Shown: positions 5,492-21,918 of the stretch, in pieces
Layout of the letters: every line of letters starts with the position of its first letter
How positions within the stretch are numbered: the stretch's first letter is position 1
From: a virus
Taxonomy: Duplodnaviria > Heunggongvirae > Uroviricota > Caudoviricetes
Reading direction: 5' to 3' (one strand)
DNA length: 44,194 nucleotides
IMG/VR virus record: IMGVR_UViG_2541047949_000001
Program-made: the position numbers and the translations under genes
The notes under the pieces: generated by a model
Databases searched by the model: none
Told to the model about the DNA's origin: nothing
What the model saw: only the letters and a program-made list of their open reading frames with translations

Positions 5492-5527
5492 TGAAGTGGT
5501 TTACTGAATTTGGCCACCTGAACAGAG

Positions 5528-6711
<1,184 letters not shown>

Positions 6712-6741
6712 CTCGGTGGCCAGTTTTTGTTGACCACTTCA

Positions 6742-7415: not shown

Positions 7416-7997
7416 ATGAACAACTCATGGTGGCAGGAACTAATGCATTTTTTCCTGCAAGGAATGACACTTAAACAGTTGATTCATATGCTAATCATCC
7501 TGATCATATTGATTATTGTTATGCCGGTAAGCGTAAAAGAATGGATAAACCTGCATAATCCAGAAATCCTTCCTCATTACTGGATGTATTACATCCTGTT
7601 GTTTTGCGTTAGCTATGTGCTTAACGGCGTTGTTAATTCCGCTTATCACGCTGTGACTGAAAGAATTGAGGTATTCGCTGCTCAGAAGCGCAAATCTAAA
7701 GAAGAAAAATATGTGCAAGATTTGTTTGATTCGTTAACTCTTGGAGAAAGAGCGTATTTGGCATTCGCTGTAGCCGCTAATAACCAGCTACAAACGGAAA
7801 AGGGCGCTCATGAATCAATTTCATTGCTCAAAAAAGGACTCCTCGTTCGAAGGCCTCCTGCTGTTGGATATCCTGATACCGACCGTTTCGTTATCCCTGA
7901 AAGCTATAGACATGAGTGCTACATTAGGTTTGCCGGGAAGGCAGACAGCCTTATGGATGAACTTATCGCTCAGGATAAGCATGGCAAAAACAAGTAA
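7416..7997 (+). CDS. sieB: Superinfection exclusion protein B
   Basis: 193-aa ORF with hydrophobic N-terminal segment, lambda SieB-like, transcribed opposite to the early-left operon. Confidence 0.85.
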   Translation: MNNSWWQELMHFFLQGMTLKQLIHMLIILIILIIVMPVSVKEWINLHNPEILPHYWMYYILLFCVSYVLNGVVNSAYHAVTERIEVFAAQKRKSKEEKYVQDLFDSLTLGERAYLAFAVAANNQLQTEKGAHESISLLKKGLLVRRPPAVGYPDTDRFVIPESYRHECYIRFAGKADSLMDELIAQDKHGKNK

Positions 7998-8013: not shown

Positions 8014-8286
8014 TCATCTCGCCGTCAGTTGTTTTGATTTCCGGTAGCCTGCCGCGTAAAGAGCTACGTTCGGAAGACAAGTTGAACCTTCATATTTTCT
8101 GGTCAACGTTGTCAGAGTTATCACTTCTGCTCTCATTGCTGGTTTGAGCTTGCATTGCAAGACCACTCGTGAAGGGGTTGGCCTGTGTAGCTTGTCGGAG
8201 CTGATCGCCTCCTGACTTTGCAGATTTGCGCGACGAGCTCTACGGCGAGAAGCTGCGGTGCCTTTAAATTCTGTTTTTCTGGACAT
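8014..8286 (-). CDS. N: Antitermination protein N (P22/21-type arginine-rich motif)
   Basis: Start chosen at ATG with GGGAGG 5 nt upstream; N-terminal ARM GTAASRRRARRA; C-terminus ...LPNVALYAAGYRKSKQLTAR resembles P22 gp24. Confidence 0.7.
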   Translation of the reverse strand: MSRKTEFKGTAASRRRARRANLQSQEAISSDKLHRPTPSRVVLQCKLKPAMRAEVITLTTLTRKYEGSTCLPNVALYAAGYRKSKQLTAR

Positions 8287-8520: not shown

Positions 8521-8700
8521 TTGGCGTGGTTTTTTATAACGCTTTGTATTTAATAGTGTTGTTTTTTAGCGTGGATGTATTGCCTCGGCGATGTAAGGAG
8601 AGATCAGAATTGCGTGGTTTAGTGGGTTGCATCTATTTATTTTTCAATAAATATAATTGGTTATGTGTTTTTAGGTGGGCGAACGTGAGGCAAAGAAAAC

Positions 8701-8718
8701 CCGGCGCTGAGGCCGGGT
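8701..8718 (-). terminator. Rho-independent terminator ending the cI operon
   Basis: Minus-strand hairpin CCCGGCctcagcGCCGGG followed by TTTTCTTTG, immediately downstream of the 250-aa ORF. Confidence 0.6.
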
Positions 8719-8722
8719 TGTA

Positions 8723-9475
8723 TTATGCTGCAAGTCTCTTAACCCAAGTCTCTCTTTTGGAGAATGGTAGAACTTGGCTTGATTCATGGAAGAGTAAGGA
8801 GAGTTGTTGCATTTGATCACCAATTGCTTCGCTGTCTATAACAACAAATCTGTTGTTATACTCCTCACTTGAAGCTTTAAGATCAATTAGTTTCCCAAGC
8901 AATGAGTAAGCACTATTCCAGCTTCCTCCGTGTTTCACGCTTGATGTAAAAACGTATTTAGGTATGTCGGTTTTTATTGTTACAGGGACGGTAATTTGAT
9001 GTCCACTCAAGCCATATACGTTTTCACGAAGAGAAAGTGCGTCTCTAAGCTCTGTGTGATATAGATAATCAATAACCATACTTTCAAACTTTTCAGCTTG
9101 AACTGGCTGATACCAGTCTAACGACAAAGTTGATGCGAGTATACCAGCTCTAATTATGTTCGATGTAATCGCACCGACATCCTTTTCTGTTGCCCAAGCA
9201 ATGATTTCTCCTCGAGCATTGAGTTCTGCGCCTTCTTTAAGCAGTAATTGTCGTATCTCATCAAGTCGTTTTTTGGTAAGCGAGATCCCTCTTGCCTCCA
9301 TATTCATTAAGGCATCGCATCTGTCACTAACTAAATACCTACCATTGACTTCACGGATAAAGGCACCGACATGCTCTCCATCATCACAGTAAGTGAATGG
9401 ACTGATAATTCTCAAGGTCTTGCCTATTGGATGGCATTCGAAACCTAGTTGTGAGATCACTGTTGAGCACATCAT
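8723..9475 (-). CDS. Uncharacterised protein (250 aa), second gene of immunity-region accessory operon
   Basis: ORF with start overlapping upstream gene stop (ATGA); AT-rich relative to neighbours; no recognised catalytic motif. Confidence 0.6.
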   Translation of the reverse strand: MMCSTVISQLGFECHPIGKTLRIISPFTYCDDGEHVGAFIREVNGRYLVSDRCDALMNMEARGISLTKKRLDEIRQLLLKEGAELNARGEIIAWATEKDVGAITSNIIRAGILASTLSLDWYQPVQAEKFESMVIDYLYHTELRDALSLRENVYGLSGHQITVPVTIKTDIPKYVFTSSVKHGGSWNSAYSLLGKLIDLKASSEEYNNRFVVIDSEAIGDQMQQLSLLFHESSQVLPFSKRETWVKRLAA

Positions 9476-10029
9476 ATTCCAAACCCCATTTGCCCCGACT
9501 CATCTTCAAGCGGTAAAGGTATTCTCCCAGAGTAAGTTATGTTCAGATGTTTACAGAAGTAATTCCAATACCCTACCAGGTCATCTGGGTTTATGTCATC
9601 TTCGATTGGAAACGCTATTCTATCACTATAGTATCCAGCTTCTTCATAGTATACATGGTAGTGAGCACCGTAAATGATATCTTGGTACTTCGGATGATCG
9701 ACCTTGTAACTATTCGTGTGTTTGTCAAAGTGATAGGTATCTACCGCGAAAACCCTCTTGTTATGATAGAAAGCAATAATATTTATTTTAGGGTAAGAAA
9801 TCGGGTCATCAGGTTCTGAATCCTGATCTGGTTTCCATTTCAGTTCAAACTTTAGCCCTTGTATAGGTATACAATCCTCATCCAAGGGGATGATATGGGC
9901 TTGTAGCCACATATCAGAGCGACTTGGTTTCTGTTTCCATTTAACGCCAGAAAAGTTAACTATTTTTTTACAATAAAGTACTTTATCAACTTCTACTTGG
10001 CTTGGCTGATAATCATCTATTTTTGCCAA
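9472..10029 (-). CDS. Uncharacterised Tyr/His/Asp-rich protein (185 aa), first gene of immunity-region accessory operon
   Basis: ORF 39 bp downstream of cI stop on same strand; no transmembrane segment or known motif recognised. Confidence 0.6.
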   Translation of the reverse strand: MAKIDDYQPSQVEVDKVLYCKKIVNFSGVKWKQKPSRSDMWLQAHIIPLDEDCIPIQGLKFELKWKPDQDSEPDDPISYPKINIIAFYHNKRVFAVDTYHFDKHTNSYKVDHPKYQDIIYGAHYHVYYEEAGYYSDRIAFPIEDDINPDDLVGYWNYFCKHLNITYSGRIPLPLEDESGQMGFGI

Positions 10030-10068
10030 TGTTTACCGCCCTGTAAATTGTAGATAAAAGTGGTTTCA

Positions 10069-10722
10069 TCACCCAAACGTCTCTTCAGGCCATTGGCTGG
10101 CGATAACTTTCCCCACAACGGAACAACTCTCATTGCATGGGATCATTGGGTATTGTGGGTTTAGTGGCTGTAGAAACACCTGACCGCTATCCCTGATCAG
10201 TTTCTTGAAGGTAAATTCATCACCACCAAGTCTGGCTATGCAGAAATCGCCGGGCTCAACAGCTTGCTCAGGGTCAACCAGAATTAACATCCCGTCAGGA
10301 AAGCTGGGTTTGGAACCTGTTGGTGCGGTCATTGAGTTACCTTCAACCTCAAGCCAGAATGCAGAGTCACTGGCTTTTTTGGTTGTGCTTACCAATCTCT
10401 CCGCATCGCCTTTGGTAAAGGTTCTGAGTTCTGGAGAGAACATCCCAGCCTGAACATGAGAAAAAACAGGGTACTCATATTGTTTTTTAACTGGGGCCGA
10501 TGAGTATTCGCCAACAGGTGAAAATGTCCCGTCGTGGTTGAATGATATGTTATCAATACCAAGGTATTTAAACACCACACCAATATCACTAAGAGATGGA
10601 TGACGAGATCCGCGCAACCAGTGTCCAATCCCACCCTGCGTCATACCTAGCTCTTCGGCTAACTTCTCTTGAGTTATGCCGAGCTCTTTCATTCTGGATC
10701 TAGCCAGTTCATACCATTTCAT
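10069..10722 (-). CDS. cI: CI-type repressor (HTH plus LexA/S24-like autocleavage domain)
   Basis: N-terminal HTH ([23 protein letters not shown]), C-terminal S24 motifs (GNSM, FKKL); start taken at second ATG with AAGGA 7 nt upstream. Confidence 0.85.
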
Positions 10723-10839
10723 TTTCATGTCCTTATTATTACGCTCTGTACTGGAACCATCCATGCACAATGTGTATTTTTACTTGTATTCGCAAAGTAC
10801 ATATTGTATTTTTTTATTCGTGTTTACTATGGAGGGCAT
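10723..10839. promoter_or_regulatory. OR / pRM-pR divergent promoter region
   Basis: 117-bp cI-cro intergenic region with repeated GTAC-arm elements (TGTACT 10747..10752; TTGTATTcgcaaAGTACA 10784..10801; AGTACatattGTATT 10796..10810). Confidence 0.5.
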
Positions 10840-11055
10840 ATGAGCAACCTACGAAAATATCGAGAGTCACTGAATATCTCTCAAACAACACTTGCTAAGG
10901 CAGTTGGATGCACACAGGGAGCTATCGGACATTGGGAATCTGGTCGTCGCTTCCCAGACCTTAAAACATGCCGTGCTCTTGTTGCGTGCCTAAACAAGTT
11001 AGGCGCAAAAGTCAGTCTTGATGACGTGTTCCCGCCGGAACACAAAGCCGCTTAA
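10840..11055 (+). CDS. cro: Cro-like repressor (XRE-family HTH)
   Basis: 71-aa ORF from ATG preceded by GGAGGG; HTH ISQTTLAKAVGCTQGAIGHWESG; divergent from cI. Confidence 0.8.
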   Translation: MSNLRKYRESLNISQTTLAKAVGCTQGAIGHWESGRRFPDLKTCRALVACLNKLGAKVSLDDVFPPEHKAA

Positions 11056-11111: not shown

Positions 11112-11196
11112 GTTCCAAGATATCTGACCAACTAAGGCCATATGCGTTTCCACGCATACCTTTCAACTAACTATTCACTATTGGAAATCTTAAGAA

Positions 11197-11493
11197 ATGG
11201 AAAGAACAAGTTACAGCAAACTATCACAGCGTGACGTTGATCGCGCAGAAACAGATTTACTTATCAATCTGTCAGCTATTACCCAGCGCGGTCTGGCAAA
11301 GATGATTGGCTGTCATGAATCGAAGATAAGCAGAACGGACTGGAGATTTATTGCTTCGGTCTTGTGTGCTTTCGGAATGGCATCAGACATCAGTCCGATT
11401 AGCAGGGCTTTTAAGTATGCGCTTGATGGACTCACCAATAAAAAACGCCCGGCGGCAACCGAGCGTTCTGAACAAATCCAGATGGAATTCTGA
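11197..11493 (+). CDS. cII: CII transcriptional activator (chimeric: divergent N-terminus, lambda-identical C-terminus)
   Basis: 98 aa; HTH TQRGLAKMIGCHESKISR; last 21 residues LTNKKRPAATERSEQIQMEF as I recall lambda CII. Confidence 0.8.
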   Translation: MERTSYSKLSQRDVDRAETDLLINLSAITQRGLAKMIGCHESKISRTDWRFIASVLCAFGMASDISPISRAFKYALDGLTNKKRPAATERSEQIQMEF

Positions 11494-11525
11494 GGTCATT
11501 ACTGGATCAATCCACAGGAGTCATT

Positions 11526-16328: not shown

Positions 16329-17411
16329 TTAGAACTGATAAACCAGACCTACAGCGACGATGTCGTCGGTATCAATACCAGCTGTTTTGGTAAACTTACT
16401 ATCGTCAATTAAGTTGATTTTGTAATCAACAAAAGTGGACATGTTTTTATTAAAGTAGTAAGTAGCACCGACATCGACATACTTGACTAAGTCTCGGTCA
16501 CCATGAACACCAAGGTCTTTACCTTTTGACTGAAGGTAAGCAACAGATGGACGCAGACCGAAGTCAAACTGATATTGTGCTACTGCTTCAAAGTTTTGTG
16601 CTTTGTTTGCAATATGGTTATTACCAAAAACGGTCATATTCTGAGTTTCAGAATATGTGGTAGCCAGATAGATATTGTTCGCATCATATTTCAGGCCTGC
16701 AGCCCATACTTCCGCATTTTTGCCGGAGGCATTGAATTTGCTCTTACCATAGGCGACCTGACCGTCAGTGCGATCTGATTTAGCATAGGTTGCACCCACG
16801 CCGAATCCTTCATACTCATAAGTAGTGGAGAAACCGAAACCATCACCATTGGCTTCAGTTACGTCAGTGCGGTCATTTTTACCCTGATACTGAGCAGCAA
16901 AGTTCAGGCCATCGACCAGACCAAAGAAGTCGTTGTTACGATAAGTTGCAACACCAGTAGTGCGACCAGTCATGAACACATCTGTTTGGGTCCAGGTATC
17001 ACCACCGAATTCTGGCAGAACGTCAGTCCACGCACCGATGTCGTATGCTACACCGTAGTTACGGCCGTAATCGATTGAGCCGTAATCACCAAATTTCAGG
17101 CCTGCAAATGCAAGACGGGTTTTGTCTTTGGAAGAACCTTGAGATTCAGCACGGTTGCCTTTGAATTCATATTCCCACTGACCGAAACCAGTCAGTTGAT
17201 CGTTGATTTGGGTTTCACCTTTGAAGCCAAGACGGGCATAAGTAGTATCACCATCATCTGCATCATTAGAGGAGAAGTAGTGCTTGGCATTAACTTTCCC
17301 GTATAGATCCAGCTTGTTACTGTCTTTATTATAAATTTCAGCTGCCTGAGCAGACATCGCCATCAGTACTGATGCAGCTACAGCAGAAATTGCCACTGTT
17401 AATTTTTTCAT
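16329..17411 (-). CDS. nmpC: Outer-membrane porin NmpC/Lc (OmpC family), apparently intact
   Basis: Signal peptide [23 protein letters not shown]; beta-barrel porin ending ...VAVGLVYQF. Confidence 0.9.
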
Positions 17412-17837
17412 TGTACGCCCTTTTTTTGAACTATTATTAAAAAATGATGTCACTGCGCGATAAATATTCATCTAATCAATGTGATTATTTCAAGATGTAA
17501 GTTTTAGTTTCTCATTTAATTTGTGAAGTAGATCTCTATTTTTATCTGAACCTTTTCTATCTAATCCTATTCATGGCTCTTGTCTGAACAAAAATAAATC
17601 TATTAGCTAATTTATATTAATGGCACTTATTTATAAGTGCTCTATAATTCTTTAGCTTAATTTAAACAAACTAAAAATAACATTGGAAATTATTAACTGG
17701 TTATTTGTTGAAGTTTTCTTATGCATTTGTGGTGGTGTTTTGAACACTCGGTGGCATTCTCACAAATATCATTTAGTAGTTTACGTACGTAAAAAATTGG
17801 TTATGCTGTTAAGAGTGGTTACTTCGTCACACAGCTT

Positions 17838-20302: not shown

Positions 20303-20408
20303 TGCTTCCAGGTAGAGAGGGGCTGGAAGCAGGAGAAAAATGAAAGAGCCAGCGGTTATATTTTTGTCATGGTGAAGTGGTTTACTGAATTTGGCCACCT
20401 GAACAGAG

Positions 20409-21592
<1,184 letters not shown>

Positions 21593-21918
21593 CTCGGTGG
21601 CCAGTTTTTGTTGACCACTTCATGGCTGACGAGGAATGATGGAAGAAGGCGTTGTATGCCACACAACGCCTCACTGTTCATTTCTTCTTTTTCTCTGGTG
21701 GAACCCGATGAATAAGAGTTGCACTGGTTTCCGATGAGATGGCGATATACTCGGGCAAAGTATGCTGGCAGTTTTCCAACTGGTCAAAAATACCTGCTCT
21801 CGTCTGTTGCAATGCCTGCAGCATGCGGCGGCAATGCGCCTTGCTTTTACTAACCATCTTTCCTTCCTCTATCAGTCGCTGCGTGAACTCATCATGGAAT
21901 ACCAGGTAAATGCGGATG

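What the first reader, a model, noticed from the sequence alone, without database searches (positions are those of the whole stretch)
8723..10029. Uncharacterised two-gene operon in the rexAB position of the immunity region: candidate anti-phage defence or exclusion module
Two overlapping ORFs (185 aa, then 250 aa, ATGA junction) lie 39 bp downstream of cI on the same strand and end at a rho-independent terminator (8701..8718), the arrangement lambda uses for cI-rexA-rexB. The segment is clearly AT-rich (about 35% GC in a sampled 60-nt stretch) compared with neighbouring phage genes, suggesting separate acquisition. I could not match either protein to any family I know (no P-loop, HEPN, obvious nuclease or transmembrane signature). 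Lysogen-expressed cargo at this site is classically abortive-infection or exclusion machinery.
Basis: partly seen in the sequence, partly recalled or inferred. Interest (0 to 1): 0.85.

Follow-up and report, generated by a model that had tools for sequence, protein, structure and literature searches.

The report
Untested prophage defence pair replacing rexAB
Two overlapping, well-conserved genes sit exactly where phage lambda keeps its rexAB exclusion genes, and belong to a widespread gene pair that temperate phages carry next to their repressor; two published computer screens flag the pair as phage defence, but I found no record of an experimental test.

Summary
Gene A (9472-10029, 185 aa, TTG start) and gene B (8723-9475, 250 aa) overlap by ATGA. 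They start 39 nt after cI and end at a terminator (8698-8719) homologous to lambda t_imm, so the pair replaces rexAB exactly. GC is 39.6% against 50.4% for the window.

The proteins do match known families. B is DUF1828 (YbjN/T3SS-chaperone-like fold) plus a DUF1829-like PD-(D/E)xK-fold domain that lacks the canonical catalytic motif. A is a remote DUF6978 member with an invariant D/H/N/H/H cluster and no recognisable fold. Together they match PADLOC candidate system PDC-M24.

The exact proteins (WP_001062368, WP_000968518) are listed as "predicted novel defense gene" in DefensePredictor (Science 2026) but are absent from its screened and validated tables.

The pair always co-occurs. It lies downstream of unrelated repressors in E. 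coli, Salmonella, Klebsiella, Aeromonas, Photorhabdus, Thorsellia and Pseudomonas phages. Canonical versions lie in Lactobacillus, Staphylococcus and Streptococcus phage lysogeny modules. Both genes are under strong purifying selection.

Best reading: a lysogen-expressed, soluble two-protein anti-phage system with an unknown mechanism that differs from RexAB. The lead is real and testable, but others have already flagged it, so interest is moderate.

The parts
10069..10764 (-). cI-type (LexA/S24 family) prophage repressor, first gene of the presumed pRM operon
   Evidence: ORF. Annotated 'cI' in phage PhiR57_1 and 'LexA family protein' in Nissle 1917, with divergent cro at 10840-11055.
10030..10068 (-). 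39-nt cI-A spacer with a GGGCGG Shine-Dalgarno-like element 6 nt before the TTG start; no terminator
   Evidence: Sequence. The terminator scan found nothing here; only a weak 9/12 promoter-like match at 10047-10019.
9472..10029 (-). Gene A: 185-aa soluble acidic protein, a remote DUF6978 / PDC-M24A relative. It has an invariant cluster D97, H104, N106, H123, H125 (plus W31, R92, F158, N163) and a conserved, low-confidence C-terminal tail (..SGQMGFGI).
   Evidence: 11 of 14 orthologues hit DUF6978 and PDC-M24A at about 1e-4. Alignment with canonical DUF6978. AF2 model pLDDT 82. No fold match in PDB or BFVD. The non-ATG start is conserved.
8723..9475 (-). Gene B: 250-aa soluble protein. The N-domain (~1-122) is DUF1828 with a YbjN/T3SS-chaperone-like fold. 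The C-domain (~125-250) is DUF1829-like with a PD-(D/E)xK restriction-endonuclease fold but no canonical D..(D/E)xK. Family-conserved residues are D51, F130, G155-x-S157, D/E198.
9472..9475 (-). ATGA stop/start overlap (translational coupling of A and B)
   Evidence: The ATGATG junction is the same in Salmonella, Klebsiella and Aeromonas. Of the 73 loci where my adjacency filter scored the A/B junction, the overlap is 4 nt in 52 and 13 nt in 21 (ORF-start artefact).
8698..8719 (-). Intrinsic terminator, homologue of lambda t_imm; left boundary of the cassette
   Evidence: 8-bp stem, 6 GC pairs, T-run. Alignment to lambda 35.7-35.8 kb just after rexB. The region 8600-8719 is shared with lambda and about 150 lambdoid phages.

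Best explanation
The segment is a lysogen-expressed, two-protein anti-phage (superinfection exclusion or abortive infection) module. It is an enterobacterial branch of the DUF6978 + DUF1828/DUF1829 pair that PADLOC lists as candidate system PDC-M24. Here it occupies the exact slot lambda uses for rexAB.

Shown:
- The operon anatomy is cI, 39 nt, A, ATGA overlap, B, t_imm.
- A and B are strictly linked, with a conserved overlap and a conserved weak (GTG/TTG) start on A.
- Both genes are under purifying selection.
- Both proteins are soluble.
- B combines a chaperone-like domain with a PD-(D/E)xK-fold domain that lacks the canonical catalytic triad.
- A carries an invariant Asp/His/Asn/His/His cluster on beta-strands.

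Inferred:
- The pair is read through from pRM with cI in the lysogen.
- A and B form a complex. One possibility is that A's conserved disordered C-terminal tail docks on B's peptide-binding, chaperone-like domain.
- A component of a superinfecting phage perturbs the complex.
- This releases an enzymatic activity, more likely A's putative metal centre than B's degenerate nuclease-like domain, which may instead bind DNA or act as sensor. That activity blocks phage replication or arrests the cell.

Rough odds: defence function about 0.6. Given defence, 'A is effector and B is sensor/regulator' about 0.3, and 'B is an atypical nuclease effector' about 0.2.
For: - Position: cI, A, B and terminator lie on one strand, and the terminator is homologous to lambda t_imm.
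- Conserved synteny behind unrelated repressors (S24-type of 224-282 aa, and short HTH proteins of 121-158 aa) and unrelated replication modules. Seen in Salmonella, Klebsiella, Aeromonas, Thorsellia, Photorhabdus, two metagenomic prophages at about 25% identity, and a Pseudomonas D3-like phage.
- Canonical DUF6978 + DUF1828/DUF1829 pairs lie between repressor and integrase, on the repressor strand, in Lactobacillus Lj965 and Staphylococcus phage 37. Streptococcus Javan249 has a DUF1828/DUF1829-type homologue in the same position, preceded by an unannotated A-like ORF that was not scanned against Pfam.
- No terminator lies between repressor and A in the Salmonella and Aeromonas loci, and a strong terminator follows B in Aeromonas.
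- All 93 loci with B also carry A. Of 32 distinct A proteins with the conserved M(A/G/T)K start, 31 use GTG or TTG.
- Purifying selection on both genes.
- PADLOC hits to both PDC-M24 components. PDC systems were defined by being embedded inside BREX, DISARM or type I RM loci.
- DefensePredictor lists both exact proteins above its stringent cutoff, in one operon, with no homology to known defence proteins.
- DUF1829 occurs in the validated system DS-6/HipAD.
- The module is retained at >=99% identity in 239 of 5426 complete E. coli genomes, including the non-inducible, IS-disrupted Nissle 1917 prophage 3. Nissle's full lambda/Stx-phage resistance has an unidentified prophage factor.
Against: - I found no experimental data. 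The pair is absent from DefensePredictor's screened and validated tables S6-S8, and the PDC systems are explicitly untested.
- Both computational predictors partly use genomic context, so they are not fully independent of the synteny argument.
- B's nuclease-like domain lacks a conserved D..(D/E)xK.
- A has no recognisable fold or enzymatic family.
- A's link to DUF6978 / PDC-M24A is weak for single sequences (E about 1e-4, below the Pfam gathering score).
- Co-transcription from pRM, A-B complex formation and the trigger are all inferred.
- The DefensePredictor validation rate at this log-odds range was well below 100% (45% overall).
Confidence: 0.6

Rival explanations
1. A toxin-antitoxin-like addiction or stabilisation cassette. 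Its selected role is to keep the prophage (or its immunity region) in the genome, with no direct anti-phage effect.
For: The two genes are tightly coupled and small to mid-sized, with a 4-nt overlap and a conserved weak start codon on the first gene. The pair is retained in decaying, IS-ridden prophages. The family also occurs on plasmids. The validated DUF1829-containing DS-6/HipAD is interpreted as TA-like.
Against: No known toxin or antitoxin family, HTH or RHH domain was detected in either protein. The pair sits in the repressor operon, with no consensus sigma-70-like promoter match upstream of A in the Salmonella and Aeromonas loci, rather than behind its own autoregulated promoter. TA and defence roles are not mutually exclusive.
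Confidence: 0.12
2. Accessory regulators of the lysis-lysogeny switch or of induction, comparable to the reported modulatory role of RexA (my own knowledge, not checked here). They would act on the prophage's own circuitry rather than on foreign phages.
For: The pair is invariably linked to the repressor gene, on the same strand, across very different phages. B has a DNA-enzyme-like fold that may simply bind DNA.
Against: The same pair accompanies at least four unrelated repressor and operator types, so it cannot be tuned to one switch. Family members were found embedded in BREX, DISARM or RM loci, on plasmids, and in one metagenomic contig next to tgt-yajC-secDF. All of these lie outside any phage switch.
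Confidence: 0.1
3. A lysogenic-conversion moron with some other host-benefit function, such as stress tolerance or metabolism of a small molecule by A's putative metal site, unrelated to phages.
For: Foreign base composition and a moron-like position with its own terminator. A's HxH/H/D cluster could be any metalloenzyme site. The window's prophage carries other conversion genes, for example a porin-like ORF at 16329-17471.
Against: Distribution is almost exclusively in lysogeny modules and defence loci. Two defence predictors flag it. No metabolic or virulence family was hit.
Confidence: 0.08

Closest known systems
Lambda RexA-RexB exclusion system
   Same: Identical genomic slot: directly after cI, on the same strand, ending at the homologous t_imm terminator. 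Both are two genes and both are presumed to be expressed in the lysogen.
   Different: No sequence match to RexA or RexB families. No membrane component: RexB is a polytopic membrane protein (my own knowledge), whereas A and B are soluble. Sizes and folds differ. The mechanism cannot be the Rex-type membrane depolarisation.
PADLOC candidate system PDC-M24 (DUF6978 + DUF1828/DUF1829; Payne et al. 2024 bioRxiv, guilt-by-embedding)
   Same: Same gene order (small A, then ~250-aa B) and the same 4-nt overlap as a canonical pair (L096). B aligns end to end with the PDC-M24B HMM. A shares the invariant R/D/H-x-N/H-x-H/F/N positions with bona fide DUF6978 proteins.
   Different: The enterobacterial A is about 35 aa longer at the N-terminus and matches only the C-terminal third of the HMMs at E about 1e-4. 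B's C-domain falls below hmmscan detection for DUF1829. The family itself is untested.
DS-6 / HipAD (DefensePredictor, Science 2026; Brenes & Laub 2025)
   Same: A validated two-gene E. coli defence system whose non-kinase partner contains a DUF1829 (PDDEXK-clan) domain, predicted to bind its partner and DNA.
   Different: DS-6 has a HipA-family kinase effector and DUF3037 in place of DUF1828. No kinase and no DUF3037 are present here.
Repressor-adjacent prophage defences such as BstA (Owen et al. 2021)
   Same: Prophage-encoded and placed next to the repressor. The concept is the same: a lysogen-expressed Abi or exclusion function (paper listed; gene placement is from my own knowledge).
   Different: No hit to any PADLOC model other than PDC-M24. 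This is a two-component system with different folds.
Type II restriction endonucleases and CRISPR ancillary nuclease Can2 (PD-(D/E)xK fold)
   Different: Sequence identity is 6-12%. The catalytic D..(D/E)xK is not conserved in the family. There is no methyltransferase partner and no CARF domain.
YbjN / type III secretion chaperone-like fold (DUF2170, SicP, CesT, AmyR)
   Different: Fold-level resemblance only. There is no secretion-system context.

Membership tests
Lambda RexAB | Located between cI and t_imm, same strand as cI | tested here: met
Lambda RexAB | Sequence homology to RexA and RexB | tested here: not met
   Pfam, PADLOC, PHROG and NCBIfam scans returned only DUF6978, DUF1828, PDC-M24 and unknown-function PHROGs.
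Lambda RexAB | One component is an integral membrane protein (RexB) | tested here: not met
   Maximum 19-residue Kyte-Doolittle hydropathy is 0.45 (A) and 1.19 (B), against 3.03 for SieB.
PADLOC PDC-M24 (DUF6978 + DUF1828/DUF1829) | B component matches the PDC-M24B HMM and has the DUF1828 + DUF1829 architecture | tested here: met
PADLOC PDC-M24 (DUF6978 + DUF1828/DUF1829) | A component matches PDC-M24A / DUF6978 | tested here: inconclusive
   E 4.8e-4 and 2.2e-4, C-terminal part only, below the Pfam gathering score. The match is consistent in 11 of 14 orthologues, and the invariant residues are shared with canonical DUF6978.
PADLOC PDC-M24 (DUF6978 + DUF1828/DUF1829) | Adjacent, co-directional, A upstream of B | tested here: met
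PADLOC PDC-M24 (DUF6978 + DUF1828/DUF1829) | Confers phage resistance | not testable with these tools
   PDCs are described as untested. The pair is not in the DefensePredictor screening tables.
PD-(D/E)xK nuclease superfamily (B C-domain) | Alpha-beta-beta-beta-alpha-beta core fold | tested here: met
PD-(D/E)xK nuclease superfamily (B C-domain) | Conserved catalytic D ... (D/E)xK residues | tested here: not met
   Family-wide conserved residues are G155-x-S157-(G)-(H159), W186, K195 and D/E198. K173 and K181 are not conserved, and no acidic residue sits at the start of beta2.
Type II toxin-antitoxin module | Recognisable toxin fold plus a DNA-binding antitoxin that autoregulates its own promoter | tested here: inconclusive
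   No TA family, HTH or RHH hit. No consensus promoter upstream of A in three genera. Toxicity is not testable here.
DS-6 / HipAD | HipA-family kinase partner | tested here: not met
   No kinase domain in A or B. Only the DUF1829-type domain is shared.

The most novel reading that the evidence does not exclude
DUF6978 + DUF1828/DUF1829 could be a mechanistically new and unusually widespread class of lysogeny-module immunity, riding with the repressor in temperate phages of both Proteobacteria and Firmicutes. In this reading a protein of novel fold with a His/Asp metal centre (A) is the effector. It is controlled by a chaperone-like sensor fused to a catalytically degenerate nuclease fold (B). 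The system would also be the missing factor behind the complete lambda and Stx-phage resistance of probiotic E. coli Nissle 1917.
Probability: 0.3. Interest if true: 0.7.

Novelty: new member of a known kind. Interest (0 to 1): 0.45.

Why it matters
If the pair defends, it would turn a purely computational candidate (PDC-M24 and a DefensePredictor hit) into a characterised system with two structurally unsolved domains of unknown function.

It would also show that the cI-t_imm slot of lambdoid phages is an exchangeable defence cassette site, with the cassette boundary at the terminator.

It offers a concrete candidate for the unidentified prophage-3 factor in Nissle 1917's resistance to lambda and Stx phages. 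That matters for the safety and use of a probiotic in the presence of EHEC.

The cross-phylum linkage to repressor genes found here is a simple rule that could be used to mine other lysogen-expressed immunity genes.

Tried and rejected
- **PDB sequence searches.** Single proteins and three profiles gave nothing credible. The 8pjr hit (E 4e-6) is a designed Kelch-type repeat protein with zero passing stretches, so I treat it as compositional.
- **Canonical nuclease motif in B.** An SxK (S179-V-K181) plus helix-acid arrangement like Cfr10I/NgoMIV (motif recalled from my own knowledge) looked attractive in E. coli. K181 and K173 are not conserved in wider alignments, so it is rejected.
- **Third word-indexed homologue search**, run with a divergent profile, recovered almost only close relatives.
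- **Literature.** There is nothing functional on DUF1828, DUF6978 or PDC-M24. The DUF1829 search led to DefensePredictor. The Nissle 'phage repressor' study did not test this pair.
- **Open caveat.** Brenes & Laub 2025 (Cell Host Microbe) could not be read. I infer from the GenBank accession series and the ECOR13 host that it is the source of phages PhiR57_1 and PhiR63_2. I cannot exclude that it tested this pair.
- **Other negatives.** No P-loop, RxxxxH or TM segments.

Full report
**1. Observation**

The window is a lambdoid prophage. On the minus strand the order is as follows:
- cI at 10069-10764.
- A 39-nt spacer.
- Gene A at 9472-10029 (185 aa, TTG start preceded by GGGCGG).
- A 4-nt ATGA overlap.
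- Gene B at 8723-9475 (250 aa).
- A hairpin plus T-run terminator at 8719-8698.

N (8014-8286) and sieB (7416-7997, plus strand) follow. cro (10840-11055) diverges from cI, as annotated in the identical regions of phage PhiR57_1 and E. coli Nissle 1917.

Aligned with lambda, homology starts exactly at the terminator hairpin that follows the rexB stop codon, and continues towards pL. The pair therefore replaces rexA-rexB precisely between cI and t_imm.

The pair is 39.6% GC (GC3 0.34-0.36) against 50.4% for the window. That places it in the lowest 0.5% of same-length windows.

Compared with the Salmonella orthologues, synonymous sites are saturated while non-synonymous divergence is low. For B, pN is 0.088 against pS 0.744. 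For A, pN is 0.158 against pS 0.877. Both are therefore genuine, constrained genes. The only adjustments are that the composition is about 40% GC rather than 35%, and the terminator coordinates are 8698-8719.

**2. What the proteins are**

*Protein B*
- B hits Pfam DUF1828 (E 5e-8, residues 26-110) and PHROG 1960.
- Its AlphaFold2 model (pLDDT 84) has two domains.
- A published HHblits annotation of the identical RefSeq protein assigns residues 155-241 to DUF1829 (98.8%), in Pfam clan PDDEXK.
- The catalytic signature is missing. In alignments reaching 19% identity, the conserved residues are D51 (invariant), D32, P26, F130, G155-x-S157, D/E198, and less strictly H159, W186, K195 and R209. No D..(D/E)xK is conserved.

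*Protein A*
- It weakly but consistently matches the C-terminal part of DUF6978 and PADLOC PDC-M24A (E about 1e-4; 11 of 14 orthologues).
- Aligned with bona fide DUF6978 proteins, the invariant positions are W31, R92, D97, H104, N106, H123, H125, F158 and N163. An HxH on a strand, with a nearby His/Asn and an Asp, suggests a metal site. This is inference.
- The C-terminal tail (..SGQMGFGI) is modelled with low confidence yet is conserved as far as Pseudomonas.

Both proteins are acidic and soluble, with no TM segment, Walker A or RxxxxH motif.

**3. Family and context**

B's profile finds only 229 cluster representatives among 1.84 billion proteins, almost all about 250 aa with the same architecture.

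All 93 loci collected with B (including the window itself) also carry A. The 4-nt ATGATG junction is the same in the Salmonella, Klebsiella and Aeromonas loci checked by hand. Of 32 distinct A proteins with the conserved M(A/G/T)K start, 28 begin at GTG, 3 at TTG and 1 at ATG. This points to deliberately weak translation initiation on A, with B translationally coupled.

The position is very consistent. The pair follows the repressor on the same strand in these cases:
- Aeromonas, with an S24 repressor of 224 aa.
- Salmonella and Klebsiella, with short HTH repressors of 128-131 aa.
- Thorsellia, with an S24 repressor of 276 aa.
- Photorhabdus, with a 121-aa repressor.
- Two metagenomic prophages at about 25% identity.
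- A Pseudomonas D3-like phage, where the A gene is unannotated.

Canonical DUF6978 + DUF1828/DUF1829 pairs lie in the lysogeny modules, between repressor and integrase, of Lactobacillus prophage Lj965 and Staphylococcus phage 37. Streptococcus Javan249 has a B homologue in the same position, preceded by an unannotated 157-aa A-like ORF that I did not scan against Pfam. Relatives also occur on plasmids and, in one metagenomic contig, next to tgt-yajC-secDF.

In the Salmonella and Aeromonas loci no terminator separates the repressor from A, and in Aeromonas a strong terminator follows B.

In E. coli the module is >=99% identical in 239 of 5426 complete genomes, including Nissle 1917, ATCC 25922 and the type strain. 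It is also present in five sequenced phages: ev017, ev207, PhiR57_1, PhiR63_2 and an Stx1a phage.

**4. What others have said**

PADLOC's PDC-M24 is cassette CAS_00098 (FAM_00129>>FAM_00065). It is one of 145 'phage defence candidates' defined by being embedded within BREX, DISARM or type I RM loci, and these candidates are explicitly untested.

DefensePredictor (Science 2026) lists the exact proteins as 'Predicted novel defense gene': WP_000968518.1 (B) at log-odds 5.64, and WP_001062368.1 (A) at 4.90 and 5.42. They are assigned to one operon, with no HHblits or Foldseek similarity to any known defence protein. Neither the accessions nor the contig appear in Tables S6-S8, which cover the screened and validated units. 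Overall validation in that study was 45%.

DUF1829 is present in their validated DS-6B/HipAD partner protein.

I found no functional literature on DUF1828, DUF6978 or PDC-M24. I could not access Brenes & Laub 2025, so prior testing there cannot be excluded.

**5. Mechanism**

The best-supported reading (about 0.6) is a lysogen-expressed two-protein anti-phage system.

Shown:
- Operon anatomy.
- Strict A-B linkage and coupling.
- Purifying selection.
- Repressor linkage across phyla.
- The domain folds.
- Solubility of both proteins.

Inferred:
- pRM read-through.
- An A-B complex, possibly with A's conserved tail on B's chaperone-like domain.
- A phage-derived trigger.
- An enzymatic effector, more likely A's putative metal centre than B's degenerate nuclease-like domain, which may bind DNA or act as sensor.

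It works like RexAB only in genomic logic. It cannot work like RexAB mechanistically, because there is no membrane component.

Rivals are a TA-type addiction cassette (0.12), an accessory of the lysis-lysogeny switch (0.10), and an unrelated lysogenic-conversion function (0.08). The switch idea is weakened because the pair accompanies at least four unrelated repressor types and also occurs outside phages.

**6. Novelty and verdict**

The pair is not family-less, however, and two published in-silico screens have already flagged it.

What is added here:
- The exact t_imm boundary.
- The cross-phylum rule of riding with the repressor.
- The conserved non-ATG start on A.
- Structure-based domain assignment, including the absent nuclease motif.
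- The invariant residues to mutate.

I classify it as a new (divergent, enterobacterial) member of a known but uncharacterised candidate kind. Interest is 0.45.

Noticed in passing
window 11151-11521 (ORF 11197-11493, +): The Nissle 1917 'phage repressor (pr, EcN_1294)' that Bury et al. 2018 cloned gave about 215-243-fold lower plating of lambda and Stx phages. Their cloning primers map to 11151-11169 and 11500-11519. The insert is therefore the gene RefSeq annotates as 'CII family transcriptional regulator', not the cI repressor and not the A/B pair.
   Followed up: yes
window 10027-10029; loci L003, L006, L009 and 93 related loci: Gene A almost always starts at a non-ATG codon: GTG in 28, TTG in 3 and ATG in 1 of 32 distinct proteins with the conserved M(A/G/T)K start. 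B starts at ATG inside the ATGA overlap. This suggests selection for weak A translation.
   Followed up: partly
L101 3483-4004 (PP083311.1, Pseudomonas phage VB_PaD_phPA-G); L104 3001-3474 (MK448716.1, Streptococcus phage Javan249): A-like ORFs just upstream of the DUF1828 gene are not annotated in these GenBank records. In the Pseudomonas phage the A-like ORF overlaps the DUF1828 gene by 4 nt. In Javan249 it ends 17 nt upstream of the GTG-start DUF1828 ORF called. The Pseudomonas phage also has an extra 216-aa gene (weak SHOCT-like hit) between cI and the pair.
   Followed up: partly
window 5492-6741 and 20373-21622: Two identical 1250-bp IS3-family copies lie in direct orientation. They bracket about 13.6 kb that holds sieB, N, the A/B pair, cI, cro, cII, O, P, the nin region and a porin gene. 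The arrangement resembles a composite transposon, could mobilise or delete the immunity region, and suggests a decaying prophage.
   Followed up: partly
window 16329-17471 (-): A 380-aa ORF with a signal peptide and an OmpC/NmpC-like N-terminus ([30 protein letters not shown]...) sits inside the prophage. It is a likely lysogenic-conversion porin.
   Followed up: no
window 10019-10047 (-): A weak sigma-70-like match (TTTACA-17-AAAAAT, 9/12) overlaps the start of gene A. It might give cI-independent transcription, but the number of such matches in the region is no higher than in shuffled sequence.
   Followed up: no
window 8600-8719: The 120 nt downstream of the pair (the t_imm-to-pL side) are shared at 90-97% with about 150 lambdoid phages that carry quite different cargo in the slot (rexAB, others, or nothing). 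This marks a recombination boundary for cassette exchange.
   Followed up: partly
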